A DNA stretch of 64,000 nt from Candidatus Poribacteria bacterium (GCA_046582655.1 JAYGDX010000073.1:31746-95745); one strand, 5' to 3'. Positions 13,403 to 41,340 are shown, counted from the first letter of the stretch. Numbers and translations: made by a program. Notes: generated by a model not told the origin, from the letters alone.

Positions 13403-14152
13403 TTGAGGGGGATGGTAATGAGTAGTAAAGAAGAACTCTTCGCTCATCTTGACAAACACGGTTACGTTGTACTGAAGGGGGTTTTGACAGTGAATCAGGT
13501 TGGCGCACTGAGGGAAAGGTCAATCGAGCTGATAAAAAAAGAGCGGGAGTTAGGAGCACAATTATACTTAGATAACAGATCGCAGCGCGTATGGAATTTA
13601 GTGAACAAAGGCAAAATCTTTGCGGACATGATACAGCATCCGTCGGTATTGGAGTTTCAAGAATATTTGTTGGGAAATAATTGTACTTTAAGCAGTTTTA
13701 CAGTCAATCTGATAGGACCGGGGTCTCCCGTTTCCGGGCTACACATTGATTATCCATTGAGTAATCTTCCAACACCACACCCATCCTTTGCTCTTTGTGC
13801 CAACAGCGTTTATCTGCTTGATGATTTCAGTTTGGAAAACGGCGCTACACGGCTTATTCCTGGAAGTCACAAGCGTGGCTATGGTCCTTCACCCGGTGAG
13901 ATGTATGATGATGTTATTCAAGTCACTGGTAAGAAAGGAGACATTATTATTGTTCATGGACATATATGGCACAGTAGTGGCGAAAATCACACTGATCGGG
14001 ATCGCGTTGCTTTACTAGGTTTCTTCTGCCGTTCTTTTATGAAGCCACAGCAAGATCATCTGAAGCTAATTGCAACAGATATTATTGAAGAGGCCTCCCC
14101 CACTTTAAAGCGGTTGCTCGGCATGGATTCACAGCCAAACCTAAATGATTAA
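13403..14152 (+). CDS. PhyH family Fe(II)/2OG dioxygenase
   Basis: LFAHLDKHGYVVLKGVLT N-terminus and HxD...H context (GLHIDYP, HGHIWHSS). Start could be 13418 or 13427. Confidence 0.7.
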   Translation: MRGMVMSSKEELFAHLDKHGYVVLKGVLTVNQVGALRERSIELIKKERELGAQLYLDNRSQRVWNLVNKGKIFADMIQHPSVLEFQEYLLGNNCTLSSFTVNLIGPGSPVSGLHIDYPLSNLPTPHPSFALCANSVYLLDDFSLENGATRLIPGSHKRGYGPSPGEMYDDVIQVTGKKGDIIIVHGHIWHSSGENHTDRDRVALLGFFCRSFMKPQQDHLKLIATDIIEEASPTLKRLLGMDSQPNLND

Positions 14153-14270: not shown

Positions 14271-15155
14271 TCAGTTTGTTCGGTGCATGACAACGCCTTT
14301 AGGGTTTTCGAGGGCATCCATCCATAGTCGACACCACTCAGTGTGGTCTGTTAGTACATTGTCGGAATTGCTTGAACTGCGAACAACAAACGCCGGATGT
14401 CCAGTACGGCCAGTGTGCTGACCGGTCGGTTGGTATCGTAGATCAATTGACCAACGGCATGACTCTGAAAGGTTGAGATTTCCACGGTGGGGCGTGAATC
14501 TATGCATTAGAATTACGTCACCTTTGTAACAGACCATTGGAAGTGGTTCAACATCTGGCACGAGGTCAGGAATGATATGCGTTCCGCCCTCTGGACAATG
14601 GTCAAGATACCCTTTGCTGATGATTCCAGGTAGAATTTCCATACATCCCATTTCAAGTGTCGCATCACCCAGTGGTAGCCAACAAGTGGTTATTTTGGAC
14701 TTTTCAGCTTCTGGCATCATTACTGCCGCATCCTGATGTAAAGGAGCTATGTGAGAAGAAGATTCAGCATCCTGATAATATTTGATTGGTGGTGTAGGAC
14801 GAAGATGTTGTATGGGATTGCAGGTGATTTCAGAACCAACCAGGGATTCTACGACGTCAAGTAGGTTTTTGTTGTGGAGAAATTCAAAGATTGCTGGGCC
14901 GCGGTAATGCATGATATCTAATCCGTGGGCGATCTCTGAAGATTGCTCGAAAATTAGCCCAAAGCACTTCTCAAACGGTTCATTTTCGTATAACTTCCGG
15001 ATTTTCCCTGCCACCTTCAATTCGTGTGCCCGACGATAAATGAAAGCTGATATCTCGTCAATTATTGGTTGCAGGTCTTCATCAGTCAAGGCATTCTTTA
15101 CAATCAGCACCCCTTGTGTATTGAACGTATCGATCTGTTTTTTTGTCAACTTCAT
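14271..15155 (-). CDS. PhyH family Fe(II)/2OG dioxygenase
   Basis: QIDTFNTQGVLIVKNALT N-terminus and HQDAA iron-binding context. 294 aa. Confidence 0.7.
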   Translation of the reverse strand: MKLTKKQIDTFNTQGVLIVKNALTDEDLQPIIDEISAFIYRRAHELKVAGKIRKLYENEPFEKCFGLIFEQSSEIAHGLDIMHYRGPAIFEFLHNKNLLDVVESLVGSEITCNPIQHLRPTPPIKYYQDAESSSHIAPLHQDAAVMMPEAEKSKITTCWLPLGDATLEMGCMEILPGIISKGYLDHCPEGGTHIIPDLVPDVEPLPMVCYKGDVILMHRFTPHRGNLNLSESCRWSIDLRYQPTGQHTGRTGHPAFVVRSSSNSDNVLTDHTEWCRLWMDALENPKGVVMHRTN

Positions 15156-21340: not shown

Positions 21341-22179
21341 TTACACCAAACCGACAAGTTGTTTCATCTGGTCATCTATCATCTTTAGATGATCAGAGTT
21401 GAAACGTTCATGAATGGTCTGGCGAGCGTTTAACTCTTTTTCCTGATTCCCTTTTTGAGTGAAATTATATAAACAAACAAGTCGGGGTTGTTGCCGCAGA
21501 TTATCCGAAGCACTGTGTATTACCTGCCCATCATAAAAAAAAACACCTCCGGCTTTGAGGGCGATTTCCTCTGGATTCCAATCGAGTCCATCAAGATTGT
21601 CCTTGGCAGTATATGCATTGTTCTTTTCCTTTTCTGCTCGGAATTGTGGATCGGCTGCCGCTTTTTCGATAAGGTAGTGACTGCCTGGGACTGCCGTCAT
21701 GGCCCCGCCCGAAGGTTCAATATCAGCAAAAGTTAGCCAGGCGTTAGCGAAACTTCCTTCTCTCTCAAGAAAAGGCGTGTTAGAGAACCCATCAGTATGA
21801 CTCCGCCAGTTCCCATTTTTTAAACATCCACACACTTTTCCGAAAAAAGTAACAACGGGTATAGGTTCGGCTGAGAGCCGAAATGAACCATCAATCATGT
21901 GTGAAATCACCTCCAGCAATTTTGGATGTGTGGCAAATCGAGCGATTTCAGGAATACTGTGCTGAGGGGTCTTGAGTTGCCGTCGTGTTCCCCAGATATG
22001 GGCATAAGACTCTGGGGATTCGGGTCGAATTTTGTCAAGCAGAATGGCAGCTCCTTCTTTTGCTTCTCCTGTGGTAAGAACATTCTCAATAGTTGCGTAC
22101 CCTTGGGCAATAAATTGCTGGCGAAAGTCTTTAATATTTTGTTTTGGCAGAGGACTTCTCCTGAGAGTATTTTTATCAT
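21341..22179 (-). pseudogene. PhyH family dioxygenase interrupted by a 1-nt frameshift near the N-terminus (ORFs 21341..21919 and 21907..22179)
   Basis: Minus-strand frame shows a clean PhyH N-terminus NIKDFRQQFIAQGYATIENVL...HPKLLEVISHMIDG continuous with the 192-aa ORF but with no start codon. The ATG at 22179 lies in the adjacent frame. The frames meet in an A-rich tract (caaaacaaaatattaaag). Confidence 0.5.
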
Positions 22180-27515: not shown

Positions 27516-29285
27516 TTATCCCTGCTTCCATTCTTGAAATTCATCTCTTGTAAAAGTATTGATCACATTCTTTTTTTCCAACCAACCGCGTCGTGCCACA
27601 TTAATGCCCAACCACATGCGATCAAGATCTTTTGCCGCGTGAGCATCGGTATTAATGGAGATCATAGCTCCCTTTTCCCTAGCATTTTTAACGATATCCG
27701 GTTCAAGATCAAGGCGACTTGGTGAGGCGTTGATTTCTAATGCTACTCCATTGTCAACTGCGGCATCAATAACCGCTGATGAGTTGATTGCATATCCCGG
27801 CCTTCGCATCAAAAGACGTCCAGTTGGATGACCAAGAACATCCACAAATGGATTCTCTATCGCTCGGACCAACCGTTTGGTCATGTCTGCCTCATTCATT
27901 TCAAAATTGCTGTGCACACTTGCCACAACAACGTCGAGTTTGGACAAAACCTGATCACTGAAATCGAGCCGACCATCTTTTAAGATATCAACCTCCAAAC
28001 CTGCCAGAATCTCCAATCCGTCAATGCGTTCGTTTAAATCACGGATCTGTTCGATCTGGGCAAACAACCGAGTTGAATCAAGACCATTAGCTATTCTGGA
28101 TGACTGTGAGTGATCGGTAATAGCAATAAAATTATATCCAATTTCAAGGGCAATCTTAGCCATTTCCCCGACCGTGTTGAGGCCATCACTCCAACTTGTA
28201 TGCATGTGAAGATCGGACCGAACGTCGCTCAATTCAATAAGTTCAGGAATTTCATCTGTGAGTGCAAGATCAGTAATTTCCTTTGATTTTCGCAACTCAG
28301 GGACAATATACGGTAAATCAAGTTGGGCGTAAATTTCAGTTTCTGTCTTACCGTACATCCACTCTTCCTTGGAGAGCCCCCTGTCACTGGCAAGATCGTG
28401 AATACTTTGAAGATGCTCAGGCGCAGCGGTTGTTGAGAATAATAATTGGCCATATGTATCTGGAGTTGCGTTATGGATCTCCACAGGGAATCCATCGGGA
28501 ATCTCCATCAGCACACACGAATCTTTGATTTCAAGTGCCTCAATTTGATCCAAGGGAGATAAAACTGGCAGCAGAACCGACAGATCGTCACACATAATTA
28601 CTAACTCGAGACTTTGGAGGACCTCCTCATACCGACGAAGATCACCAGTGAAATCGATTTGTTTTACTAGACCACACTCCTTCAAGGCCTCAACAATCTC
28701 GTCTGCGATTGGAAGTACTTGACCTAGGAGACGCTTGCCTTCAAACGACTCAATATGCTGAAGACTGTGATTAATCGTTTGAATCGTCTTTTGCCCGAAA
28801 CCACTGACATTCTTCAGTAACCCCTCATTAACTGCACGACGTAAGTCAACAAGGGTTTTTATGCCAGCATCATGGTACAAACGTGCTGCGCTCTTTACTC
28901 CAATACCACGTACCTGAAGTAGACTAAGCGCATCCTCACCAATCTCACGCTTCAGTCCTTCATAAAATTCACAGGTGCCAGTTTCCAAGATTTCAACTGT
29001 TTTTGACTCGATTGCCTGACCAATGCCGGGAATTGTCCTCAAATTACCTTCAACAGCCAATTGTGCTATGGATTGAGGAAGTTCTTCAATCAGAGTTGCT
29101 GCGCGCTCGTAGCTTCGTTGGCGGTAAGAGCTTTCACCTTTAATCTGTAAAAGATTACTGATATTCTTAAAAACCTGACTAATTTCTTCGTTCGTCACCG
29201 GATCACTTACCTCAAGGTTTGCCAATTTTCCTGTTTTTTCGATCACGTCGTTTATCGTATACGCAAAATGAAATCCAATTCGCAC
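27516..29285 (-). CDS. polX: DNA polymerase family X with C-terminal PHP phosphoesterase domain (PolX)
   Basis: HhH/pol-beta-like N-terminal blocks. PHP motif DLHMHTSWSDG. 589 aa. 3-nt gap to trmFO. Confidence 0.8.
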   Translation of the reverse strand: MRIGFHFAYTINDVIEKTGKLANLEVSDPVTNEEISQVFKNISNLLQIKGESSYRQRSYERAATLIEELPQSIAQLAVEGNLRTIPGIGQAIESKTVEILETGTCEFYEGLKREIGEDALSLLQVRGIGVKSAARLYHDAGIKTLVDLRRAVNEGLLKNVSGFGQKTIQTINHSLQHIESFEGKRLLGQVLPIADEIVEALKECGLVKQIDFTGDLRRYEEVLQSLELVIMCDDLSVLLPVLSPLDQIEALEIKDSCVLMEIPDGFPVEIHNATPDTYGQLLFSTTAAPEHLQSIHDLASDRGLSKEEWMYGKTETEIYAQLDLPYIVPELRKSKEITDLALTDEIPELIELSDVRSDLHMHTSWSDGLNTVGEMAKIALEIGYNFIAITDHSQSSRIANGLDSTRLFAQIEQIRDLNERIDGLEILAGLEVDILKDGRLDFSDQVLSKLDVVVASVHSNFEMNEADMTKRLVRAIENPFVDVLGHPTGRLLMRRPGYAINSSAVIDAAVDNGVALEINASPSRLDLEPDIVKNAREKGAMISINTDAHAAKDLDRMWLGINVARRGWLEKKNVINTFTRDEFQEWKQG

Positions 29286-29391: not shown

Positions 29392-29991
29392 TTACTGCCG
29401 TTTAGCAAGAGTGTAGACTTCAATTTCACGCAGGCTGGCATAGGATGGCTGTAATACTCGGAAGTAAGTAACTAGGCGGCCATAAAAATTCTTCCGGATC
29501 TTATTGACAATCTTATCATTCGGGTCTGGATCGGTTTTTGAAATAACTCGATCGTCTACTGTTCGTCGTACTTTAAGACGCAGCATATTGGTTTGAAAAT
29601 TTAATCGATCAATCACATATTTCGGCTGAACTCGCCTGCCGTCAAGATTGCGGCGTTGTAGAACTGTATGCGCTTGTTTCCATTCCTGATTTTCGAGATC
29701 CCAATAATCAAGGTCGAAACGGAAAAGGTTGACGTTGTAGACAATAACTTTCCGTACTTTATAAATCTGGGGAAATTTGAGCCCAAACACCCTGTGGTTT
29801 GCAGGATCAACAACCGCAATAGTCCCTAGTTTGCCATCGTTAACAGCGGGATCAGAGGCTTCTGTTTCGTTAGATGCTAATGCCAGATTTTCACTCCACT
29901 GCGTTGATAGCATGCTGGTTGACAAACAACCGAATAAGCTGATGCAAAATAGGATCATGCAGATAGCAGATATACTTTGTGATACATTCAT
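29392..29991 (-). CDS. lipoprotein with a probable F5/8 type C (discoidin-like) domain
   Basis: Signal peptide with LFGC lipobox. C-terminal SLREIEVY resembles the discoidin terminal motif. 2-nt gap to the rhomboid gene. Confidence 0.4.
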   Translation of the reverse strand: MNVSQSISAICMILFCISLFGCLSTSMLSTQWSENLALASNETEASDPAVNDGKLGTIAVVDPANHRVFGLKFPQIYKVRKVIVYNVNLFRFDLDYWDLENQEWKQAHTVLQRRNLDGRRVQPKYVIDRLNFQTNMLRLKVRRTVDDRVISKTDPDPNDKIVNKIRKNFYGRLVTYFRVLQPSYASLREIEVYTLAKRQ

Positions 29992-29993
29992 AT

Positions 29994-30743
29994 TCAGACC
30001 TCTGTGTTGCGAACTGCTAAGTGAATTGGGGGCTTTTTATAAGCTGCGTCGACCAGTGACGGCTCCACCCACTGATTTTTGGGTTGGACATCCTCAATTC
30101 TACCATAGTCTCGTACGAATATCATTCCCAGGAAAAACCCGGCAATGTGTGCTACCCAAGCGATGGGTGTTCCTTGCGGTGAGATGTAAGCATAAAAGAT
30201 TTGGGTCCCAATCCATGGTAGAAGAACAACAGTTGTTCGTAGTGAGACAACGTAAATTAGGAGAAGGCTTCGAACACGCGCTTGGGGGAAAATGACTAAA
30301 TGGGCTCCCATCACGCCAGCGATAGCAGCACTCGCACCAATAACGGGAACATCCGATTGATGATGAAAAACAGAGTAAATAAACGTTGCCAAGATACCAC
30401 AAGCGAAATAAAAAAGGAGGAACCGGATTCGCCCAATATGATATTCAAGGATTGGTCCAAAGACAGCGAGATACAGCATATTGGTGATTAAATGTAGAAA
30501 TCCCATCTTCCAACGAACGTCATGTAAAAAAAGTGAACATATAAAATCTCGACTATGGCTGAAAAAAGATGGAAAGAGTTCAGATGGGATAACACTATAT
30601 ATTGGAATTAAATCAATGCCATCGATTATAAAGAGAATCTGATAAGTAAACACAATGAGATTTAGGCTGATGAGGAAGTGGACCACTAAGGGGCGTTTAG
30701 AACTTTGGGCTGAAGGCAAAACACTTCGCAAAGGAATAAGCAT
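29994..30743 (-). CDS. rhomboid family intramembrane serine protease
   Basis: 6 TM helices. GxSG-type catalytic motif IGASAAIAG and catalytic His in AHIAGFFLG. Confidence 0.7.
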   Translation of the reverse strand: MLIPLRSVLPSAQSSKRPLVVHFLISLNLIVFTYQILFIIDGIDLIPIYSVIPSELFPSFFSHSRDFICSLFLHDVRWKMGFLHLITNMLYLAVFGPILEYHIGRIRFLLFYFACGILATFIYSVFHHQSDVPVIGASAAIAGVMGAHLVIFPQARVRSLLLIYVVSLRTTVVLLPWIGTQIFYAYISPQGTPIAWVAHIAGFFLGMIFVRDYGRIEDVQPKNQWVEPSLVDAAYKKPPIHLAVRNTEV

Positions 30744-30755
30744 GGCTATCTTCCC

Positions 30756-31037
30756 CTAGACTTCAGGATAGGTAACATCAAATCGATCAACAACGCCCAC
30801 AATCAATTCTCGAATTGGAGCTCTTTCAATGTCGAAAACCTCTTGTGCTACTCCTGGAGCAGAACCGACCAAGACAGTATCTCCTTCTCCAGCACCAACG
30901 TAGTCAACTGCAATTGTTGGGGTTCTCACCACCTTACCTTGTAAACTAATAGGCTGAACAAGCAGTAGAGTTCGTGCGTCGTAAGCCGAATGTTTAACGA
31001 CTGATACGACTTTCCCAATTACTTTCGCTAGGTACAT
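30756..31037 (-). CDS. EutN/CcmL/PduN family microcompartment vertex protein (BMC-P)
   Basis: KVIGKVVSVVKH N-terminus and IAVDYVGAGEGDTVLVGSA core. 93 aa. Confidence 0.7.
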   Translation of the reverse strand: MYLAKVIGKVVSVVKHSAYDARTLLLVQPISLQGKVVRTPTIAVDYVGAGEGDTVLVGSAPGVAQEVFDIERAPIRELIVGVVDRFDVTYPEV

Positions 31038-31039
31038 TG

Positions 31040-31324
31040 CTATTCATTTGTCTCCGGTGTCATGGTAATGGAGTCAACAAGCCCGACAATTGCTATATCA
31101 GTAGGGATTTCTCGATCCGCATGGGCAAAAGCAGCATCACCACCACTAACGACGTATACTATATCATCGATACCAGCAATACCCTCAATGTCAACGGCAA
31201 CAATGGGAGATCCAACTGGTTCATGATTTTGTAATATCCGCTGCACAACAAAAAGCCGTAGCCCCACTAGATTGGGATCTTTTACCGTTGTAACAACCGT
31301 GCCAATGATTTTACCTATATCCAT
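31040..31324 (-). CDS. EutN/CcmL/PduN family microcompartment vertex protein (BMC-P), second tandem copy
   Basis: KIIGTVVTTVKD N-terminus and IVAVDIEGIAGIDDIVYVVSG core. 94 aa. 2-nt gap to the next gene. Confidence 0.7.
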   Translation of the reverse strand: MDIGKIIGTVVTTVKDPNLVGLRLFVVQRILQNHEPVGSPIVAVDIEGIAGIDDIVYVVSGGDAAFAHADREIPTDIAIVGLVDSITMTPETNE

Positions 31325-31332
31325 AAATTCTT

Positions 31333-32766
31333 TTAGACCTCAATCCCATATTCCTCAATTTTAACATGTAACGTGTTTCTGTTAATACCGAGGATCTCCG
31401 CTGCTTTGCTACGATTTCCTCCTGCTTTTATCAACACGATTTCAAAAAGCGGCTTTTCCATCGTTTCTCGTATGTGTTGATAAAGGGATCTGTCATCCAC
31501 TCCTGAATCTAAGTAACTCTCCACTTTGCTTTTGATTATTCGGCGTACGTGAATCTCCTGGTCTGATTCAACCGGCGTCGTAAATTTAAACTGCTCACCT
31601 AGTAGTTGAGGACAGTGTTCTGGTAATAGTGCAGTACCTGAACACATAACCAGTCCCTGTTTTATGATATTTTCCAGTTCGCGAACATTACCTGGCCAAC
31701 TGTGGTTCATCAGTAGTTCGCAGGTTTGATCAGATATAGCTACCTTCAGCTGTTTATACTCATTGGCAAATTGTGTAGTGAATAGATCTACAAGATCAGG
31801 AATATCTTCTTTCCGGTCACGAAGAGGTGGGATATGAATTGGTATGACATTCAAGCGATAATAGAGATCTTCACGAAAAGCATTCTCTTTTACATCCTGT
31901 TGGAGTTGACGGTTCGTAGCTGCAACCACGCGGACGTCTATTTTTCGAGACTGGTTTGCTCCGACCGGTTCCACTTCGCGTTCCTGCAAAACACGCAACA
32001 GTTTCATTTGTGTGTCAGCCGACAATTCACCAACTTCATCCAGAAAGATCGTGCCGCCGTTACTTTGTTCAAATTTACCTTGGCGGGATGAGTCTGCTCC
32101 AGTGAATGCGCCCTTAACATGACCGAACAATGCACTTTCGATTAGATTAGCTGGGATTGCGCTACAGTCAAAAACCACGAATGCTTGATCTGCACGATTA
32201 CTGTTTTGGTGAATTGCACGCGCTACTAATTCTTTACCTGTACCACTTTCACCCATAACTAAGACAGTCTCATTGCTAGTTGCGGCCCGACCGATGATTT
32301 GGTATACACGGCGCATTTCCAAACTCTGGCCAACAATTTTGCTGCCTTGTGACTTGGGACTGTCAGCATCAGAAAAGTCCTGACTCTCTTTTATCTGTTT
32401 GGTAGCATTGACGGCACGTTTTGCCGTAGCCGCGACTTCTTTGATATCGAATGGTTTGGTAATATAATCATACGCCCCTTGTTTTGCTGACTCGATAGCT
32501 GTTTGCGTGTCGCCATGTGCCGTAATTACCACAATCGAAACAGAATTTTGGATTTCAAGTATTTCAGGGATTAGATCTAAACCGTTAATATCCGGCATGA
32601 AAATATCAAGGAAGACAGCACTAACTGGATCTAATTCAAGTAGTTTTATTGTCTCTTTACCATCACGAGCAGGAAGCGGCAGATATCCCTCTTTTTCCAA
32701 GGCTTTCGATAGAACGAAACGGATGCTTTCGTCGTCATCGGCAATAAGAATTTTGTGTTCTGTCAT
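31333..32766 (-). CDS. sigma-54-dependent response regulator (NtrC family: REC + AAA+ + Fis HTH)
   Basis: Receiver Asp context ([10 protein letters not shown]). Walker [15 protein letters not shown] motif. C-terminal HTH. Confidence 0.85.
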
Positions 32767-32902
32767 TTTACCAACTTTGTTAGATTGACTGATATTGGCG
32801 GCTAACGGTAAGTTCCTTCACTTCAAGTTAGCTATGGTGTTGAATGTAGTACAAGGTTGTGTCAAGTTAATTGGCTAGCTTTCTGGAAATGGACTTAGCC
32901 CA

Positions 32903-34444
32903 TTAAATCGGCATCGTAATAAGAAACGCCGCCCCTTTTGGCGATGTTACATCAACTTCAATTGTACCATTGTGATCTTCAATTATCTGTTGGCTAATAG
33001 CAAGACCAAGCCCTGTGCCTTTTGGTTTCGTAGTGTAAAATGGATCGAAAAGTTTGTGGGTAATTTCCGGATGTATTCCACGCCCAGTATCTTCGATACG
33101 TAGTTCTATGACTGATTTTTCGAGATCAAAAGTCGCGTTGATAGTTAAAGTGCCATCGTTTTCTATAGACTCAATAGCATTCCGAAAGAGATTGAGCAAA
33201 ATCTGTTCTATAGCTTCTGGATTTACTTTAACCTTTGGCAGATATTGTTGATAATTTTGTTTAACTTCAACTTGGTGTTGTTTGAGTTCGGGGTCACAGA
33301 CTTTGAGCACATCAAATACAAGCGATTTCAAATCACACAACTCAAAATTAACGGCCTGAGATTTGCCAAAAGTGAGTAATTGCTCAATAACACGATTGAG
33401 GCGGTCAACTTCTTTTAAAATCACATCAATATAATCTCGACTGTTGGCATCAAAATTCTCTTCGAGTTGGAGGAGTTGTGCCGCACCGCGAATTCCTCCG
33501 AGAGGATTCCGTACCTCGTGAGCAACGGTCGTCGCCATTTTTCCCAATGTCGCTAGGCGTTCTGATTGAACGAGCGAATCAATCATCTGCTGGATTTTTA
33601 CGCGCTGGGCTGTAATTGAAGCAACAACGGTGAGAATCCGAAGTTCATCTTCAGCAGAAAATTCATCAGAACCTTTGTCAATTGCCAGAGTACCAACGAC
33701 CTTTTCATCGACAATTAGGGGTAAACACCAGAAAGCAATTGGGTTCTTCGACTCAACTGAATCTGCAAATGGAAAGCTATCATCACCTCTTCTCATCCAT
33801 TTGTGTGGAACACCGATTGGTCGACCATACTTTAATACTTTTTCTTGAATGACATCGATCTGCTTCCGATCTCGAATTTCTGCTTCTGTTAAGCCGAATG
33901 CCGCGTCAAGGTATTGATTCTGTTGATCTTTATCGTAGATATTAAGATGTGCTTGGTACAACCCCATGCGATTTGCTAAAATCTTAATAATCTGCTGGAA
34001 AAAACTTTCAAGATCATGGGCAGAATTTGCTGATGCACTGACATCGAAGAGTGTCGACATATCCCGAATTCTCTTCTCAAGATCTCGGTTGTCTTGATCG
34101 GTTCTCAGAAATTGATTTTTTACTTCCGTTTCCTTTGTTTTGAACTTTTGTATTGTTTGCAGAATGCAAAGAGAAATGAAAGGATAAATCATCACCGAAA
34201 CAGTAAAATGGTCCCAATTGTAGACAAAAGCAAGATAAATAAAGTTAATGATTGTTGTGAGTGCAAGAATCGTGAATTGCCCAGGACGATTATCGTATCG
34301 ACCTGAGAGAGCTATCAGGGCATAATATAGATGGATTGCAACATAATAATTTTGGAGATTGTCAGAACCATAGATAAAAATATTAATTAGAAAAATCAAA
34401 AACGTAAGACAGATCGTTTTCACTTCTGTTTCACTCAGTTCCAA
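32903..34444 (-). CDS. sensor histidine kinase with N-terminal multi-TM region and GAF domain
   Basis: H-box ATTVAHEVRNPLGGI. HATPase_c G-boxes (DTGRGI, GTGLGLAI). GAF-like segment upstream. Confidence 0.8.
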   Translation of the reverse strand: MELSETEVKTICLTFLIFLINIFIYGSDNLQNYYVAIHLYYALIALSGRYDNRPGQFTILALTTIINFIYLAFVYNWDHFTVSVMIYPFISLCILQTIQKFKTKETEVKNQFLRTDQDNRDLEKRIRDMSTLFDVSASANSAHDLESFFQQIIKILANRMGLYQAHLNIYDKDQQNQYLDAAFGLTEAEIRDRKQIDVIQEKVLKYGRPIGVPHKWMRRGDDSFPFADSVESKNPIAFWCLPLIVDEKVVGTLAIDKGSDEFSAEDELRILTVVASITAQRVKIQQMIDSLVQSERLATLGKMATTVAHEVRNPLGGIRGAAQLLQLEENFDANSRDYIDVILKEVDRLNRVIEQLLTFGKSQAVNFELCDLKSLVFDVLKVCDPELKQHQVEVKQNYQQYLPKVKVNPEAIEQILLNLFRNAIESIENDGTLTINATFDLEKSVIELRIEDTGRGIHPEITHKLFDPFYTTKPKGTGLGLAISQQIIEDHNGTIEVDVTSPKGAAFLITMPI

Positions 34445-34552: not shown

Positions 34553-35158
34553 TTAATCCTTTTCCAGGAAATTGTTGAGCATTTTAAGCCCAATTCGACC
34601 GCTTTTTTCAAGATGGAATTGCGTGGCAATTAAATTTTTGTGCGCAATTGTGCTGCAAAACTCTACGCCGTAATGAGTCCTACCAATTATGATTTCTGAA
34701 TCCTCAGGAACCGGATAGTACGAATTGACAAAGTAGAAATATCCTGAATTTGGTACATCATTAAAGATCCAATGATCGTTAATTTGCTGCACTTGATTCC
34801 AGCCGATTTGTGGAACCTTTATCATTGGTATGGGTTTAAATTTCTTTACTTGGCCAGAAAGAACACCTAGGCAGTCTGTACCGTCTTCTTCACTATAATC
34901 AAATAAGATCTGGATGCCAATACAAATACCCAGCATCAGTTTGCCAGATTCATAGGACTCAATCAGTATCTGGGAAAGTCCTGTTTCATGGAGTGTATCC
35001 ATTGTGGCCTTAGCCGCACCAACACCAGGAAAAATAACTTTCTGAGATGCTAGGATTTTTTGCGGATTTGCTGTGATTTCGCATTGATAACCCAAAAAAT
35101 TTACGGCATGGGCGACACTCGTCAAGTTTCCGGCGTTATAATCAATAATAGCAATCAC
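34553..35158 (-). CDS. hisH: imidazole glycerol phosphate synthase glutaminase subunit HisH (class I GATase)
   Basis: GICIGIQIL catalytic Cys. QFHLEKS His/Glu motif. About 201 aa. Confidence 0.65.
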   Translation of the reverse strand: MIAIIDYNAGNLTSVAHAVNFLGYQCEITANPQKILASQKVIFPGVGAAKATMDTLHETGLSQILIESYESGKLMLGICIGIQILFDYSEEDGTDCLGVLSGQVKKFKPIPMIKVPQIGWNQVQQINDHWIFNDVPNSGYFYFVNSYYPVPEDSEIIIGRTHYGVEFCSTIAHKNLIATQFHLEKSGRIGLKMLNNFLEKD

Positions 35159-35206
35159 GATATTTCTTACAGTTTGTCCTTTCCTTCAATTGATTTGAAT
35201 TGTAGT

Positions 35207-35680
35207 TCATAACTGATCTATTTGTTTATACAAGTTGGTTATTTCGATTGCCGCTGCAGCCGCTTCGGATCCTTTGTTGCCCGCTTTTGTTCCAGCACGT
35301 TCAATTGCTTGATTAACGGTGTCAGTGGTGATAACCCCAAAAATTGTTGGGACGCCAGTTGCATACGAAACTTGTGCAATACCGGAAGCACTCTCACCTG
35401 CAACATAATCGAAATGGGGAGTAGCTCCCCGGATTACAGCACCAAGACAGATAATAGCATTGAACTTACCTGTATCTGCGAGTCGTTTAGCAGTGGAAGG
35501 GATTTCATACGAGCCGGGTGTGCGGAACACAGAGACATCATCCATATTTACACCATGACGTTTGAGTGTGTCAAGCGCGCCCTCAAGCAACCCATCAGTA
35601 ACGAAACTGTTAAATCGGCTGACAACAATTGCAAATATTAGCCCACTCCCAATTAGATCTCCTTCATAAATTTTTGTCAT
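35207..35680 (-). CDS. ribH: 6,7-dimethyl-8-ribityllumazine synthase
   Basis: Lumazine synthase length and conserved blocks ([14 protein letters not shown]). Confidence 0.85.
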
Positions 35681-35700
35681 GTTTCCTTGCCCTTTACCTA

Positions 35701-36933
35701 TTAATTGTCTATTTTCTGAAGAATCAGGTGACCCAGCTTCGATCGTTTTGTCTCAAGATACCGACAGTTGAATTGTTGAGGCGGGACCTCAATCGGCACG
35801 CGTTCGACAACTTCAAGGTTATACCCATCAAGACCACTAATCTTGCGTGGATTATTTGTCATTAGATACATCTTACTAATGCCAAGATCAGATAAAATTT
35901 GAGCCCCTATCCCATAGTCTCTGAGATCCGGTGGGAACCCAAGTTTTTCGTTAGCTTCGACTGTGTCAAGTCCCTCTCTATCCTGGAGTTGGTAGGCGCG
36001 TATCTTATTGCCGAGTCCCATCCCACGGCCTTCCTGACGCATGTAAAGTATGACGCCGCTACCTGCTTCCTCAATAGCTTTCATCGCGTATTCTAATTGT
36101 TGACCACAATCACAGCGTAGCGACCCAAAAATATCACCTGTCAGGCATTGTGAGTGAACTCGGACTAAAATTGGTTCACCGGAAAGAATTTCACCTTTAA
36201 CCAACGCAACATGCGTTTTTGCATCGTTTATGCTTTCGTAGGTGTAAAGTCTGAACTCACCATTTCGAGTTGGCAGATCAGCTTCAGCGACAAGCTTAAC
36301 TAGTGATTCCTTTTGGTGTCGGTACGCAATTAAATCAGCAATAGTAACAATTTTAAGGTTATGCAGAGAAGCAAAATCAAGAAGTTCAGGAGTGCGTGCC
36401 ATTGTGCCATCATCATTTAAAATTTCACAGACAACACCGGCGGGATATAAGCCAGCAAAATGTGCGAGATCAACAGCGGCTTCTGTATGGCCAGCACGTC
36501 TGAGAACTCCACCTTCGGTTGCTTGAAGCGGAAATATATGACCGGGTCGCATGAAGTCAGCCGCAGTTGCATCTGGTTCAATGAATCTTCTTATCGTCAT
36601 AGCACGTTCATAGGCCGAGATGCCTGTTTTAACGCCTTTAACATCAATTGTAACTGAAAAGGCAGTGCGCATAGTTTCGTTATTTTGATTTACCATTAAT
36701 GGTAAACTTAGCTCTGACAACCGTGCCGTCGTTGCAGGCAGGCAAATCATTCCCCGACCATGCTTTAACATGAAATTTATGGCTTCTGATGTAACCTTTT
36801 CAGCCGCCATAACCAGATCCCCCTCGTTTTCACGATCAGGATCATCCACAACGATAATAATCTCACCGTTTTGGATCGCATCAACTGCTTCTGGAATAGT
36901 GTTAAATCCACTCATTTTCGCATGTGTACTCAA
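35701..36933 (-). CDS. ribBA: bifunctional 3,4-dihydroxy-2-butanone-4-phosphate synthase / GTP cyclohydrolase II
   Basis: DHBP synthase N-half (DRENEGDL) and GCH-II C-half with Cys triad (CLTGD...CDCG). Confidence 0.9.
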
Positions 36934-36952
36934 GCATTAACCAAATAATTGA

Positions 36953-37552
36953 TTAGTTTTTGTGTTGACAAGCCAACAACCGTTCAACATAGCGACCAAT
37001 AAGATCTACTTCAATGTTGACCTGATCTTCTACTCGTTTCTGGCCCATGGTTGTTACTTCTTTGGTGTGAGGAATTAGTGATATTTCAAAAGAGTCATCT
37101 AACAAGTTGGCAATTGTTAAGCTCACCCCATCAACAGTAATTGAACCTTTATAAACAATGTATGGCATCGATTTTAGTGAAATTGACACACGCATAAGAG
37201 ACGAATCGCCTTCGTCTTTCCAGTCAATGATTTTGCCAACTTCATCAATGTGCCCTTGAACAAGATGCCCGTTAACACGATCAACGAGTCGAACAGATCT
37301 CTCTAAATTTACCGGTGATCCAACCTTGAGATCACCCAAATTTGTTAGCCGTAATGTTTCAGCAGTGATATCCGCATTGAACCTGTCCGAAGTGAGATTT
37401 GTAACCGTCAGACAAACGCCGTTAACGGCAATGCTGTCGCCGACTTTGCTGTTCGCTAAGGTCCTTTTTGCCTCAACTTCGATTCTGGCAGATTGGGGCA
37501 ATCTGTCAATTAGCTGAACTATTCCAACTTCCTCTACAATCCCGGTAAACAT
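36953..37552 (-). CDS. ribE: riboflavin synthase alpha subunit
   Basis: MFTGIVEEVG start. Duplicated lumazine-binding halves (VNGVCLTV / VDGVSLTI). Confidence 0.85.
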   Translation of the reverse strand: MFTGIVEEVGIVQLIDRLPQSARIEVEAKRTLANSKVGDSIAVNGVCLTVTNLTSDRFNADITAETLRLTNLGDLKVGSPVNLERSVRLVDRVNGHLVQGHIDEVGKIIDWKDEGDSSLMRVSISLKSMPYIVYKGSITVDGVSLTIANLLDDSFEISLIPHTKEVTTMGQKRVEDQVNIEVDLIGRYVERLLACQHKN

Positions 37553-37556
37553 AGGC

Positions 37557-38663
37557 TTAGTTCAGATATCCTTCAATGAGAAAGTCCTCACCAATTTTTG
37601 TGAATTCCCAATTGTGAATATCAATTGCTTCCGACAAATTCGTGATTCCGTTACCTCCGATCACTCCAGGGGCACTTTGACCGCCAATCAATTTTGGAGC
37701 AACGAAGAACATAACCTTATCAACAATACCTGCATCTAATGCAGAAGCGTGGATTTCGCTGCCTCCTTCGATAAGTATACTGGTTATACCGAGTTCTATT
37801 AATCTATTCATCAAGGATGTCAAACAAACCCGCTTATCATTGGAATCTACAATCAGTACGTCTGCACCTGCAGATTCAAGCTCTTCCATTTTCGTTCTGG
37901 GCGCAAATTCGGTTGTAGCAATGATAACCTTTGCACGACTTTCGGGATTGAAAATTTTGGCTTTGATTGGTGTACGGCAGCATGAATCAACAATGATCCG
38001 AATCGGGTCCTGACTGTCTCGATTGAGCAATCGCGTGGTCAAAGATGGATTATCTCGAAATACAGTACCAATGCCAACAAGGATAGCATCGACCATATCC
38101 CGAAGTCCATGTCCCTTTTGTCGAGCTGCCGGTGAGGTGATCCATTGAGAGTCTCCAGTTACAGTCGCAATTTTTCCATCAAGGCTAGTAGCCGCTTTCA
38201 GTATTACAAACGGCTGTTTCTTCACCATGTTTTTAATAAAAATTTCGTTCAACTGATATGCTTCATCGTGGCACAGACCAACTTCCACCTCTATTCCCGC
38301 TTGACGGATTTGTTCTATACCCTTACCCGCTACTATTGGATTGGGATCTTCGATCGCAACAAATATCTTGCTAATTCCTGATTGAACGATTATGTCAGTG
38401 CAGGGAGGCGTTTGTCCCCAATGGCAACATGGTTCGAGTGTTACATACATCGTAGCACCACGAGCAAATCCTTTTGCCTGATTCAAAGCCTGCGGTTCGG
38501 CATGCGGTGTGCCAGCTTGTTTGTGATAACCCTCACCAACGATTTGACTTGTATTAACGATTACCGCTCCTACCATTGGATTAGGGCTTGTTCTCCCACT
38601 GGCTTTGGCCGCTAGGTCTATGGCTCGATGCATGAAACACTGGTCTACTTCTGAAAACCCCAT
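37557..38663 (-). CDS. ribD: bifunctional diaminohydroxyphosphoribosylaminopyrimidine deaminase / 5-amino-6-(5-phosphoribosylamino)uracil reductase
   Basis: CMP/dCMP deaminase zinc motif HAEPQAL...PCCHWG plus C-terminal reductase domain. Confidence 0.85.
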   Translation of the reverse strand: MGFSEVDQCFMHRAIDLAAKASGRTSPNPMVGAVIVNTSQIVGEGYHKQAGTPHAEPQALNQAKGFARGATMYVTLEPCCHWGQTPPCTDIIVQSGISKIFVAIEDPNPIVAGKGIEQIRQAGIEVEVGLCHDEAYQLNEIFIKNMVKKQPFVILKAATSLDGKIATVTGDSQWITSPAARQKGHGLRDMVDAILVGIGTVFRDNPSLTTRLLNRDSQDPIRIIVDSCCRTPIKAKIFNPESRAKVIIATTEFAPRTKMEELESAGADVLIVDSNDKRVCLTSLMNRLIELGITSILIEGGSEIHASALDAGIVDKVMFFVAPKLIGGQSAPGVIGGNGITNLSEAIDIHNWEFTKIGEDFLIEGYLN

Positions 38664-39816: not shown

Positions 39817-39915
39817 TTCGATCTATTACTCCTAATTGGTCTAATACCAGTTTTTGACTTGACGATTTTATGTAGTGTCAAGTATATTCTTGAAATTATG
39901 CTGGTGAAAAAAGAA

Positions 39916-41340
39916 ATGACGTCTGTCCAACTGTCGGCTTTGCGACGTATTCCTGCCATCGAAAAGCTACTAGCTTCCCAATCCTTTCTTACCATTCAGA
40001 ACGAGTTTTCGCGGAATCTGATAACAGAAGTCTTGCGATCAGTTATTTTAGATATCCGTCAGCAGATAGGATGTACGCCGGGAGCAGTGAATCTGCCGGA
40101 TGAGTCAATGATTGCGGAGACGGTTCAAGAACGACTTAAATCAATCATGACTCCAAACTTACGGTCGATCGTCAACGTAACCGGTACGATCACACATACA
40201 AATTTTGGGAGGTCGATACTTAGCGATGTGGCCTGTGAGAGTTTGATTCAAGCGGCAAAGAACTGTGTTAACTTGGAATTTGATCTTGCCTCTGGTAAAA
40301 GAGGGCACCGAGACCAAATTACAGAACCGCTTCTGCAGAAACTTACCGGATGCCAAGCCTCAACAGTTGTTAATAACAACGCAGCGGCAGTTTTTCTGGT
40401 GCTTAACACCTTTGCACACGGTAAAGAAGTGGTTGTTTCACGCGGCGAATTAATAGAAATTGGTGGGGCATTCAGAATCCCGGATGTTATGGAATCCAGT
40501 GGAGTTATTCTAAAAGAGGTTGGTACAACCAATCGAACCCATCTGGAGGATTACGAAAAAGCTATTAATGAAAATACTGCTTTGCTTTTAAAAGTCCATC
40601 CCAGCAACTATCAAATTGTTGGGTTCACAGAAATGCCGGAGATGCATGAAATTGTCGAACTCGGAAAGCAATATAACATTCCAACAGTAGAAGATTTGGG
40701 TAGTGGATCACTTATTGATTTAAGTGAATACGGTTTGCCAAGTGAGCCGATTGTGCGTGACCGGATTGATGCAGGCGTCGATCTCGTCTTGTTTAGTGGG
40801 GATAAATTGCTAGGCGGGGCCCAGGCTGGCATCATTGTTGGAAAAGGTGGAATGATCAAGAAAATCCGCAAGAACCCAATCATGCGTACCTTGCGAGTTG
40901 GAAAACTGACAATCGCTGCTTTGGAAACCACACTGAGATTGTATCTCAACGACTTCAACCTAGATAAGAAACTGCCGATGCTTCACTGGTACACGCGTTC
41001 GTTGGACGAACTCCAACAAGTAGGGAATCATCTGCTAAGACAACTGGGTGAAACTTTAGGAGATGAAATCCAAGTTACCATTGAGGAAAGCCTCGCTCAA
41101 ATTGGCAGCGGATCTTTACCTGTTGCTAATTTGCCGAGTTTGGCAATCGTATTGAAATCGGAGCGACTGACTGCAAGCTCAATCGCCAAATGCTTTCGCA
41201 ACCAGCCAAGACCAATTGTTGGTCGGGTCCAAGACGACTGTTTTTGGATTGATCTCCGGACAGTCAACAACCAAGAAATTCAGTGGATCTGCGAAGCCGC
41301 AAGGTCAATCAGCCAAAAGGGTAACACAGAAAATTCATGA
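39916..41340 (+). CDS. selA: L-seryl-tRNA(Sec) selenium transferase (selenocysteine synthase)
   Basis: PLP-lysine block FSGDKLLGGAQAGIIVGKGGMIKKIRKNPIMRTLRVGKLTIAALETTLRLYL. N-terminus MTSVQLSALRRIPAIEKLL. The ORF-track start 39859 is trimmed to ATG 39916. Confidence 0.85.
   Translation: MTSVQLSALRRIPAIEKLLASQSFLTIQNEFSRNLITEVLRSVILDIRQQIGCTPGAVNLPDESMIAETVQERLKSIMTPNLRSIVNVTGTITHTNFGRSILSDVACESLIQAAKNCVNLEFDLASGKRGHRDQITEPLLQKLTGCQASTVVNNNAAAVFLVLNTFAHGKEVVVSRGELIEIGGAFRIPDVMESSGVILKEVGTTNRTHLEDYEKAINENTALLLKVHPSNYQIVGFTEMPEMHEIVELGKQYNIPTVEDLGSGSLIDLSEYGLPSEPIVRDRIDAGVDLVLFSGDKLLGGAQAGIIVGKGGMIKKIRKNPIMRTLRVGKLTIAALETTLRLYLNDFNLDKKLPMLHWYTRSLDELQQVGNHLLRQLGETLGDEIQVTIEESLAQIGSGSLPVANLPSLAIVLKSERLTASSIAKCFRNQPRPIVGRVQDDCFWIDLRTVNNQEIQWICEAARSISQKGNTENS

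What the first reader, a model, noticed from the sequence alone, without database searches (positions are those of the whole stretch)
29392..34444. Sigma-54 two-component system co-operonic with two tandem EutN/CcmL (BMC vertex) genes, a rhomboid protease and a discoidin-like lipoprotein; no shell hexamer genes in 64 kb
What the sequence shows. On the minus strand, the GAF histidine kinase (34444-32903) and the NtrC-type regulator (32766-31333) are followed by two 93-94 aa EutN/CcmL-family genes (8-nt gap, then 2-nt gap). These carry the hallmark VIGxVVSTVK and AVDxxGAGxG...VLVxxG motifs. Next come a rhomboid protease (12-nt gap) and a lipobox lipoprotein with a discoidin-like C-terminus (2-nt gap). 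None of the roughly 60 ORFs in this window looks like a BMC-H (PF00936) or BMC-T shell protein, nor like a signature BMC enzyme. Established knowledge. EutN/CcmL pentamers cap the vertices of microcompartment shells and are normally encoded inside BMC loci alongside hexamer genes. Inference. This is either a satellite BMC-P locus under dedicated sigma-54 control, or an undescribed non-BMC use of the EutN fold linked to a membrane protease and a secreted carbohydrate-binding-like protein.
Basis: partly seen in the sequence, partly recalled or inferred. Interest (0 to 1): 0.75.

Follow-up and report, generated by a model that had tools for sequence, protein, structure and literature searches.

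The report
Known poribacterial satellite microcompartment-vertex gene locus
The six genes are real and sit exactly as described, but this is the Poribacteria "BMC group B" / FRAG2 locus already published in 2014 and 2021: two microcompartment vertex-protein genes kept apart from the hexamer genes, whose purpose is still unknown.

Summary
On the minus strand lie a GAF histidine kinase, an NtrC-type regulator, two PF03319 (EutN/CcmL) genes, an active rhomboid protease and a 199-aa lipoprotein, separated by gaps of 136/8/2/12/2 nt. The lipoprotein's predicted fold is discoidin/CBM32-like. No PF00936 gene and no signature BMC enzyme occurs in the 64 kb or about 7-10 kb beyond each end.

The organism is a pelagic Candidatus Poribacteria. 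The same gene order (rib genes, HK, sigma-54 regulator, tandem PF03319, rhomboid, hypothetical) was published for sponge Poribacteria as "BMC group B" (Kamke 2014). The Kerfeld catalog (Sutter 2021) files poribacterial shell genes as the fragmented "FRAG2" type: a BMC-P triplet plus two BMC-H at separate sites.

In 80 species-level genomes, HK-RR-EutN1-EutN2-lipoprotein is kept in 68. The rhomboid is present in only 28. No hexamer gene lies within +/-10 kb in any of them. EutN1 and EutN2 are ancient paralogues (36% identity).

No sigma-54 promoter is detectable, so "dedicated sigma-54 control" is unsupported.

I could not test whether this MAG itself has hexamer genes. New here: the lipoprotein's fold, the phylum-wide counts and the missing promoter. 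Interest is low to moderate.

The parts
32903..34444 (-). Sensor histidine kinase. It has four predicted N-terminal transmembrane helices with very short loops and no periplasmic domain, followed by GAF, HisKA and HATPase_c.
   Evidence: ORF; Pfam GAF 39 bits, HisKA 62 bits, HATPase_c 82 bits. The TM helices are read directly from the translation (inference). Orthologue present in 71 of 80 loci.
31333..32766 (-). NtrC-type sigma-54-dependent response regulator (receiver, AAA+ with GAFTGA, Fis-type HTH).
   Evidence: Pfam Response_reg 91 bits, Sigma54_activat 241 bits, HTH_8 45 bits. It scores below every NCBIfam equivalog cut-off. GAFTGA is read in the translation.
31040..31324 (-). BMC-P paralogue 1 (EutN1, 94 aa), the less conserved clade (mean 70% identity within the phylum).
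   Evidence: PF03319 81.5 bits, full length. Best solved relatives are CcmL 2qw7, GrpN 4i7a and HO shell BMC-P 5v74, E 3e-11 to 2e-10. Monophyletic clade.
30756..31037 (-). BMC-P paralogue 2 (EutN2, 93 aa), the strongly conserved clade (mean 83% identity). It keeps VGAGEGD but has PIREL in place of the usual PxDA motif.
   Evidence: PF03319 74.5 bits. Best solved relative is EutN 2hd3, E 3e-8. It is 39% identical to EutN1. Clade statistics and consensus.
29994..30743 (-). Rhomboid intramembrane serine protease with both catalytic motifs. An optional member of the locus.
   Evidence: PF01694 98 bits. GASAAIAG and AHIAG are read in the translation. The Ser motif is kept in 28/28 orthologues. Present in 28 of 80 loci. 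Not a rhombosortase: TIGR03902 25 bits vs cut-off 84.
29392..29991 (-). Exported lipoprotein (lipobox LFGC, Cys22) with a discoidin/CBM32-like beta-sandwich. The most constant non-shell partner of the BMC-P pair.
34553..38663 (-). Context only: hisH, ribH, ribBA, ribE and ribD upstream on the same strand. Their adjacency is conserved as well as the operon itself, so they serve as a control for inherited synteny.
   Evidence: Pfam annotations. HisH-HK adjacency found in 68 loci, median gap 75 nt.
27516..29285 (-). Context only: PolX (PHP-domain family X DNA polymerase), directly downstream. This adjacency is limited to the pelagic lineage.
   Evidence: Pfam. PolX is adjacent only in L009 and L010. 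Kamke Table S5 shows RR-rhomboid-PolX near BMC-H in SAG 4E.

Best explanation
This is the pelagic-Poribacteria orthologue of the published poribacterial 'BMC group B' locus, which is one fragment of the FRAG2-type fragmented microcompartment gene set. The two small genes encode two anciently diverged BMC-P (pentamer/vertex) paralogues. They most likely correspond to the two extra members of the BMC-P 'triplet' that always co-occur (inferred; the clade colours were not tested). They are expected to form pentamers that dock onto shells built from BMC-H hexamers encoded elsewhere in the genome, next to PduL in sponge Poribacteria. In this window they are probably transcribed together with the kinase and regulator genes rather than from a sigma-54 promoter of their own. 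The kinase has no periplasmic domain. It is flanked by genes for an exported sugar-binding-like lipoprotein and, in some lineages, a rhomboid. My inferred working model is that these envelope proteins feed a cell-surface or periplasmic glycan signal to the kinase, and that the regulator then activates sigma-54 promoters at other loci. Shown here: the gene identities, the paralogy, the synteny, the lipoprotein fold, and the absence of hexamer genes and of a sigma-54 promoter locally. Inferred: shell incorporation, co-transcription and the signalling link.
For: Both genes are full-length PF03319 well above threshold and are homologous to solved vertex pentamers. The organism is Candidatus Poribacteria. 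The gene order is identical to Kamke 2014 Table S3/Text S1. Poribacteria are the main phylum of FRAG2, described as a BMC-P triplet plus two BMC-H with scattered genes. [quoted passage not shown] EutN1 and EutN2 are separate monophyletic clades, 36% identical, as far from each other as from CcmL, GrpN or EutN. The tandem pair is tightly coupled everywhere (median gap 3 nt). HK-RR-pair-lipoprotein is kept in 68 of 80 species-level genomes down to 43% HK identity. BMC-H+PduL lie elsewhere in sponge SAGs and the BMC-H is transcribed and detected by antibody. The lipoprotein is exported and has a CBM32/discoidin-like fold.
Against: No hexamer gene lies within +/-10 kb of the pair in any of 88 loci. 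No sigma-54 promoter was found, so the regulator's link to the pair is adjacency only. The housekeeping rib and hisH genes are syntenic to the same degree, so synteny in this single phylum is weak evidence of functional coupling. Four poribacterial genomes keep pair+rhomboid without the kinase, regulator or lipoprotein, and two loci from MAGs labelled only 'bacterium' keep only the pair. A periplasmic lipoprotein cannot touch a cytoplasmic shell. Nobody has seen polyhedral bodies in Poribacteria, and the BMC-H antibody signal was at the membrane.
Confidence: 0.6

Rival explanations
1. The adjacency is inherited synteny with no shared function. The BMC-P pair serves the fragmented microcompartment. 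The kinase/regulator, rhomboid and lipoprotein form an unrelated envelope-signalling module that has simply stayed next to it within one phylum.
For: The rib and hisH housekeeping genes are conserved next to the kinase as often as the operon itself (68 loci). All strongly syntenic loci come from a single phylum. In two related loci from MAGs labelled only 'bacterium' (L008, L071) only the pair persists, next to a GDPD gene and efflux genes. Four poribacterial genomes lack the kinase, regulator and lipoprotein at the pair. The RR-EutN1 spacer varies from 6 to 2277 nt and carries a sigma-70-like TTGACA-N17-TACTAT in L022 and L032. No sigma-54 promoter was found.
Against: The order HK-RR-pair-lipoprotein survives to 43% kinase identity and about 45% lipoprotein identity in 68 of 80 species. 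Gaps in the window are 2-12 nt. A second sigma-54 regulator-rhomboid pair lies about 10 genes from BMC-H-PduL in SAG 4E, so the regulator/rhomboid-shell association recurs.
Confidence: 0.25
2. The two EutN-fold proteins have a role that is not shell capping, for example a membrane-proximal scaffold or adaptor working with the intramembrane kinase, the rhomboid and the lipoprotein.
For: BMC-P paralogues outnumber what 12 vertices require. [quoted passage not shown] The pair is never near hexamer genes. EutN2 is unusually conserved (83%) and replaces the PxDA motif with PIREL. The poribacterial BMC-H antibody signal was ring-shaped at the cell membrane. FRAG loci lack identifiable enzymes or encapsulation peptides.
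Against: Both proteins keep the full PF03319 domain and most hallmark motifs. Sponge Poribacteria do encode BMC-H and PduL. Gray/orange-type pairs also occur inside complete BMC loci such as HO type II and SPU. No direct evidence exists for any membrane association of BMC-P.
Confidence: 0.12
3. The shell gene set is decaying and non-functional in this lineage; the pair is a relic.
For: Kamke 2014 raised this possibility because of the low PF00936 copy number and nearby transposases. No enzymes or hexamers are linked to the pair.
Against: Both ORFs are intact in essentially all loci. EutN2 is 83% and EutN1 70% identical on average across a phylum in which the adjacent kinase has drifted to 43%. 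That pattern indicates strong purifying selection.
Confidence: 0.03

Closest known systems
Poribacterial 'BMC group B' region (Kamke et al. 2014, PLoS One, PMC3909097, Text S1 and Table S3)
   Same: Same phylum and same gene order: ribD/E/BA/H, histidine kinase, sigma-54 Fis-family response regulator, two tandem PF03319 genes, rhomboid, hypothetical protein. PF00936 is at a different locus.
   Different: The window comes from a free-living pelagic / hydrothermal-plume lineage rather than a sponge symbiont. PolX and TrmFO follow the hypothetical gene here. SAG 4E has an extra hypothetical gene between the regulator and the kinase.
FRAG2 fragmented BMC type (Sutter et al. 2021, Nat Commun, PMC8217296, Supplementary Data 2)
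   Same: Poribacteria make up 21 of its 33 loci. Shell genes are scattered over several genomic sites, there is a BMC-P triplet plus two BMC-H, no identifiable enzymes and no known function.
   Different: Only two of the three BMC-P and none of the BMC-H are in this window. I could not assign the catalog's clade colours to these two proteins.
Haliangium ochraceum type I HO satellite locus (two BMC-P plus an aldolase)
   Same: A tandem pair of extra BMC-P paralogues encoded away from the hexamer-containing main locus.
   Different: The HO pair sits next to a class II aldolase and the genome has a proper main locus with AldDh. Here the neighbours are a two-component system, a rhomboid and a lipoprotein, and no main locus is known.
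CsoS4A/CsoS4B of alpha-carboxysomes
   Same: Two adjacent BMC-P paralogues that always co-occur.
   Different: They lie inside a complete carboxysome operon with hexamers, Rubisco and carbonic anhydrase. NCBIfam carboxysome models score far below cut-off here: 27-29 bits vs cut-offs of 120 (TIGR02703) and 88.9 (TIGR02704).
CBM32 / F5-F8 type C (discoidin) carbohydrate-binding modules
   Different: There is no significant Pfam match for the window protein. It is a stand-alone lipoprotein rather than a module of a glycoside hydrolase, and sugar binding is untested.

Membership tests
BMC-P (PF03319 EutN/CcmL vertex protein) | Single, full-length PF03319 domain of about 80-100 aa scoring above Pfam's gathering threshold | tested here: met
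   81.5 and 74.5 bits vs cut-off 25, covering profile positions 1-83 of 83.
BMC-P (PF03319 EutN/CcmL vertex protein) | Sequence homology to experimentally solved pentameric vertex proteins | tested here: met
   CcmL 2qw7, GrpN 4i7a, HO shell BMC-P 5v74 and EutN 2hd3, E 3e-11 to 1e-5, end-to-end alignments.
BMC-P (PF03319 EutN/CcmL vertex protein) | Forms pentamers that occupy shell vertices | not testable with these tools
   No multimer prediction or experiment was available.
BMC-P (PF03319 EutN/CcmL vertex protein) | BMC-H (PF00936) genes present in the same genome | tested here: inconclusive
   Absent from the window, from about 7-10 kb beyond each end and from +/-10 kb in 88 loci. Literature reports 1-2 PF00936 genes in sponge SAGs and two in FRAG2.
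Specific equivalogs CcmL / EutN / CsoS4 | Score above the NCBIfam equivalog cut-off | tested here: not met
   Best is beta_CO2some_L at 59 and 56 bits vs cut-off 125; EutN 42.5 and 41 vs 118; CsoS4A/B 27-29 vs cut-offs 120 (TIGR02703) and 88.9 (TIGR02704). These are family members but not orthologues of any named vertex protein.
Poribacterial 'BMC group B' locus (Kamke 2014) | Gene order rib genes - HK - sigma-54 RR - two PF03319 - rhomboid - hypothetical, in Poribacteria | tested here: met
   Window ORFs and Pfam compared with Table S3/Text S1. Taxon.
FRAG2 BMC type (Sutter 2021) | Shell genes dispersed; BMC-P genes not adjacent to BMC-H; no typical BMC enzymes nearby | tested here: met
FRAG2 BMC type (Sutter 2021) | BMC-P triplet drawn from the gray, orange and green clades | tested here: inconclusive
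   There are two deeply diverged paralogue clades in tandem. Clade colours could not be assigned because the reference tree and sequences are truncated in the stored supplement. The third (green, 95 aa) paralogue is not in the window.
Satellite locus sensu Axen 2014 | Only one shell protein type, shell genes contiguous, and a separate complete BMC locus elsewhere in the genome | tested here: inconclusive
   The first two criteria are met. The third was not testable here. The literature says Poribacteria have no complete main locus, hence the term 'satellite-like'.
Sigma-54-dependent two-component control of the adjacent genes | NtrC-type regulator with receiver, AAA+ GAFTGA and HTH domains | tested here: met
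   GAFTGA is read in the translation.
Sigma-54-dependent two-component control of the adjacent genes | A -24 GG / -12 GC promoter upstream of the controlled genes | tested here: not met
   The window has 16 sites at >=9/12 vs 14.1 expected, none upstream of HK, RR or EutN1. There is no conserved site in 80 loci. The apparent enrichment inside EutN2 is a codon artefact.
Rhomboid protease (PF01694) | Domain match plus the catalytic GxSxxxxG serine and the downstream histidine | tested here: met
   98 bits. GASAAIAG and AHIAG are present. The Ser motif is kept in 28/28 orthologues.
Rhombosortase (TIGR03902) | Score above the equivalog cut-off | tested here: not met
   25.1 bits vs cut-off 84.
Discoidin / F5-F8 type C / CBM32 domain | Sequence match to PF00754 | tested here: not met
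   No hit for the window protein. Distant family member P0218 reaches 27.8 bits vs cut-off 28.2.
Discoidin / F5-F8 type C / CBM32 domain | Galactose-binding-domain-like beta-sandwich fold | tested here: met
Bacterial lipoprotein | Signal peptide ending in a lipobox with an invariant Cys | tested here: met
   LFGC with Cys22 in the window. About 70 of 71 orthologues keep [L/F/M]x[A/G]C before the conserved mature N-terminus. No dedicated predictor was available.

The most novel reading that the evidence does not exclude
The strongly conserved EutN1/EutN2 pair of Poribacteria does not cap microcompartment shells. It acts instead as a cytoplasmic, membrane-proximal partner of an envelope-sensing module (intramembrane GAF kinase, NtrC regulator, discoidin-like lipoprotein, sometimes a rhomboid). 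That would be a first defined non-shell function for the unexplained 'extra' BMC-P paralogues found in many phyla.
Probability: 0.1. Interest if true: 0.7.

Novelty: already known. Interest (0 to 1): 0.27.

Why it matters
Why many bacteria keep three BMC-P paralogues when 12 pentamers suffice, and what the enzyme-less fragmented (FRAG) microcompartments do, are open questions in the field. Poribacteria are abundant sponge symbionts with a pelagic sister lineage. This locus keeps two of the three paralogues beside a signalling system and an exported sugar-binding-like lipoprotein, which makes it a natural starting point for experiments. The locus itself is not a discovery. This analysis adds the phylum-wide counts, the fold of the previously 'hypothetical' partner, the finding that the rhomboid is dispensable, and the absence of a sigma-54 promoter.

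Tried and rejected
1. Searching for poribacterial BMC-H with Salmonella PduA as the query. All 8000 scored candidates matched and the 120 rows listed were enteric or Firmicute sequences, so nothing was learned about this genome.
2. Sutter 2021 supplement for the shell-gene inventory of pelagic Poribacteria. The stored trees are truncated, and only the 95-aa 'fadedGreen1' BMC-P of MAG CMK10 is visible.
3. Jahn 2016 supplement for BMC-H antigen peptides and for expression of the group B genes. There are no peptides. Only the unlinked group C BMC-P is listed, at 0.38x housekeeping level.
4. Sigma-54 promoter scans. One search had an indexing bug and was redone. The apparent enrichment of GG-N10-GC upstream of the rhomboid and lipoprotein genes is caused by the conserved G-x-x-P-G-V-A codons inside EutN2, scores only 8/12 and is absent in the window, so it was rejected.
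5. The idea that the 426-aa protein following the rhomboid in L033-type loci is a long relative of the lipoprotein. Rejected: hhalign probability 0.1%, BLASTP E 5.6.
6. Sigma-70 promoter and terminator scan of the operon. Counts are at or below shuffle expectation, so transcription-unit boundaries cannot be called. One 10/12 site with an extended -10 at 31385-31358, inside the 3' end of the regulator gene, could be an internal promoter, but it is not statistically distinguishable from chance.
7. Rhombosortase identity of the rhomboid. Rejected.


Full report
**1. Observation**

They are a 513-aa histidine kinase (32903-34444), a 477-aa response regulator (31333-32766), two small genes of 94 aa (31040-31324, 'EutN1') and 93 aa (30756-31037, 'EutN2'), a 249-aa membrane protein (29994-30743) and a 199-aa protein (29392-29991). 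The intergenic gaps are 136, 8, 2, 12 and 2 nt.

Pfam confirms each assignment:
- The kinase has GAF, HisKA and HATPase_c.
- The regulator has Response_reg, Sigma54_activat (241 bits) and HTH_8. The GAFTGA loop is visible in its translation.
- Both small proteins match PF03319 over the full profile, at 81.5 and 74.5 bits against a cut-off of 25.
- The membrane protein matches PF01694 (rhomboid) at 98 bits, with the GASAAIAG serine and AHIAG histidine motifs.

NCBIfam places the two small proteins well below the cut-offs for CcmL, EutN and CsoS4. They are therefore family members but not orthologues of any named vertex protein. Both align end to end with solved vertex pentamers: CcmL 2qw7, GrpN 4i7a, the Haliangium shell BMC-P 5v74 and EutN 2hd3.

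**2. No hexamers or BMC enzymes nearby**

tblastn with PduA, CcmK2, EutM and CsoS1A gives only noise, all E>1. A profile HMM built from 119 BMC-H proteins finds nothing at E<=1 in the six-frame translation of the window or of 88 related loci. A BMC-P profile finds exactly the two expected genes. Pfam annotation of the rest of the window, and of about 7-10 kb beyond each end, shows no aldehyde dehydrogenase, PduL, class II or DeoC aldolase, or other signature BMC enzyme.

**3. The 199-aa protein**

- Its N-terminus is a hydrophobic segment ending in LFGC. About 70 of 71 orthologues keep [L/F/M]x[A/G]C immediately before the conserved mature N-terminus. It is therefore an exported lipoprotein.
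- An exhaustive profile search finds only 52 representatives among 1.84 billion, so the family is very small. One distant member almost reaches the PF00754 threshold, 27.8 versus 28.2 bits.

**4. Organism and prior description**

The identical proteins occur on contigs of up to 180 kb. These come from hydrothermal-plume metagenomes (Kilo Moana) and from MAGs GCA_015663955.1 and GCA_012963885.1, annotated Candidatus Poribacteria.

Kamke et al. 2014 (PMC3909097) described the same arrangement in sponge-symbiont single-cell genomes 3G and 4E as 'BMC group B'. It comprises riboflavin genes, a histidine kinase, a sigma-54 Fis-family regulator, tandem PF03319 genes, a rhomboid and a hypothetical protein. 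PF00936 and PduL lie at a separate 'group A' locus and a third PF03319 gene at 'group C'. Axen et al. 2014 classed all poribacterial shell loci as 'satellite-like'.

Sutter et al. 2021 placed them in the fragmented type FRAG2. Poribacteria make up 21 of its 33 loci, which have a BMC-P triplet plus two BMC-H, no identifiable enzymes and unknown function. [quoted passage not shown] A 2024 paper still states that the reason 'remains unknown'. Jahn et al. 2016 showed that the poribacterial BMC-H is transcribed, and its antibody signal localised to the cell membrane.

**5. Comparative analysis**

A scan of one genome per species returned 80 loci, nearly all Poribacteria and many from chromosome-level assemblies.
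- By tblastn, HK-RR-EutN1-EutN2-lipoprotein is present in 68 of the 80. In 24 of those the rhomboid sits between EutN2 and the lipoprotein gene; in 44 it is absent.
- Four genomes have EutN1-EutN2-rhomboid without the kinase, regulator or lipoprotein.
- Most of the remaining exceptions are truncated contigs.
- Two loci from MAGs labelled only 'bacterium' keep only the pair.
- The EutN1-EutN2 gap has a median of 3 nt. The RR-EutN1 spacer ranges from 6 to 2277 nt, with a median of 50.
- EutN1 and EutN2 form separate monophyletic clades that are 36% identical to each other. That is as far apart as either is from CcmL, GrpN or EutN.
- EutN2 is notably conserved, at a mean 83% identity against 70% for EutN1 and about 43-55% for the kinase.

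This pattern argues for ancient paralogy under strong purifying selection and against a decaying relic. One caveat matters. The housekeeping hisH and rib genes are conserved next to the kinase just as often (68 loci). Synteny inside this single phylum is therefore weak evidence of functional coupling.

**6. Regulation**

After I corrected an indexing error, a consensus scan for TGGCACG-N4-TTGCW found 16 sites at >=9/12 in the window against 14.1 expected. None lies upstream of the kinase, regulator or EutN1. Across the 80 loci there is no conserved -24/-12 element upstream of those genes. An apparent enrichment inside EutN2 is explained by the conserved G-x-x-P-G-V-A codons. Long RR-EutN1 spacers carry AT-rich leaders, or in L022 and L032 a TTGACA-N17-TACTAT motif, rather than sigma-54 elements. 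Sigma-70-like and terminator-like sites in the window's operon are at chance level.

The regulator is therefore a genuine sigma-54 activator, but there is no evidence that it drives the adjacent vertex genes. With an 8-nt gap they are more likely co-transcribed with it. Its targets are probably elsewhere.

**7. Most likely mechanism**

The pair most probably encodes the two 'extra' BMC-P paralogues of the poribacterial FRAG2 microcompartment, forming pentamers that dock on shells made of hexamers encoded elsewhere. That step rests on family membership and the literature; it was not shown here.

The kinase has four predicted transmembrane helices with minimal loops, as read from the translation, so it has no periplasmic sensor domain. 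A plausible but untested model is that the exported CBM32-like lipoprotein, and in some lineages the rhomboid, relay a periplasmic or surface glycan signal to it.

Kamke's Table S5 shows a second sigma-54 regulator-rhomboid-PolX trio about 10 genes from BMC-H-PduL in SAG 4E. The regulator/rhomboid-shell association therefore recurs, which is modest support for a real link.

The rival explanations are synteny without shared function, a non-shell role for the pair, and a decaying relic. The last is disfavoured by the conservation pattern.

**8. Limits**

I could not establish whether the window's own genome contains PF00936 genes. I also could not assign the catalog's clade colours to EutN1 and EutN2, or test oligomeric state.

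**9. Verdict**

The locus has been in the literature since 2014 and in the BMC catalog since 2021, so it is not novel. 'Dedicated sigma-54 control' is unsupported. The modest additions here are the phylum-wide quantification, the optional status of the rhomboid, the discoidin/CBM32-like fold of the conserved lipoprotein partner, and the absence of a sigma-54 promoter. The biological puzzle of what the extra BMC-P paralogues and FRAG microcompartments do remains open, which leaves some residual interest.

Noticed in passing
window 50772-52936 (+): A second sigma-54 two-component pair: a short HisKA+HATPase kinase (50772-51560, 262 aa) overlapping an NtrC-type regulator (51557-52936, 459 aa). 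It is followed by a cyclase-family gene and unknowns (coordinates, Pfam).
   Followed up: no
window 5000-5818, 13403-14152, 14271-15155 (-), 21341-21919 (-): At least four PhyH (PF05721) dioxygenase-family genes within 64 kb, plus more just outside the window. This matches the PhyH expansion reported as a poribacterial hallmark by Kamke 2014.
   Followed up: no
L089 2063-6859 (about 1-5 kb beyond the window start on contig KiloMoana_10000008): A large 585-aa rhomboid-domain protein sits between a PKD-domain protein and a 757-aa protein with no Pfam hit. This is a second rhomboid context in the same genome.
   Followed up: no
L034-L087, immediately 5' of EutN1 (e.g. L035, L038, L051): In the rhomboid-less poribacterial clade, a roughly 30-nt AT-rich leader 'AAATGAATTAAATGAAATTGAGATTATACTA' is conserved directly upstream of the EutN1 start codon. 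A sister subclade has 'AAATAAATTGAAGGACAACAAGGAAAAATAAAACTA'. L022 and L032 instead carry TTGACA-N17-TACTAT in that spacer. This could be a translation or regulatory element.
   Followed up: partly
window 27516-29285 (-), and Kamke 2014 Table S5: PolX (PHP domain) directly follows the lipoprotein gene in the pelagic lineage only (L009, L010). In sponge SAG 4E, PolX instead follows a second sigma-54 regulator-rhomboid pair located about 10 genes from BMC-H-PduL-ExbB/D. This suggests rearrangement or duplication of a regulator-rhomboid module between shell-gene fragments.
   Followed up: partly
L033, L046, L048, L049 (10001-12813): Four chromosome-level poribacterial genomes have EutN1-EutN2-rhomboid followed by an unannotated 426-aa protein, with no kinase, regulator or lipoprotein. 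The 426-aa protein is unrelated to the lipoprotein family.
   Followed up: partly
window 39859-41340 (+): A SelA (selenocysteine synthase) gene, implying selenoprotein use by this pelagic poribacterium.
   Followed up: no
L007 11398-16524: In a more distant relative (2.1-Mb contig), the lipoprotein gene is followed by a 1708-aa peptidase C25 (gingipain-like) protein with a FlgD-Ig domain. This is another exported or surface protein next to the module.
   Followed up: no
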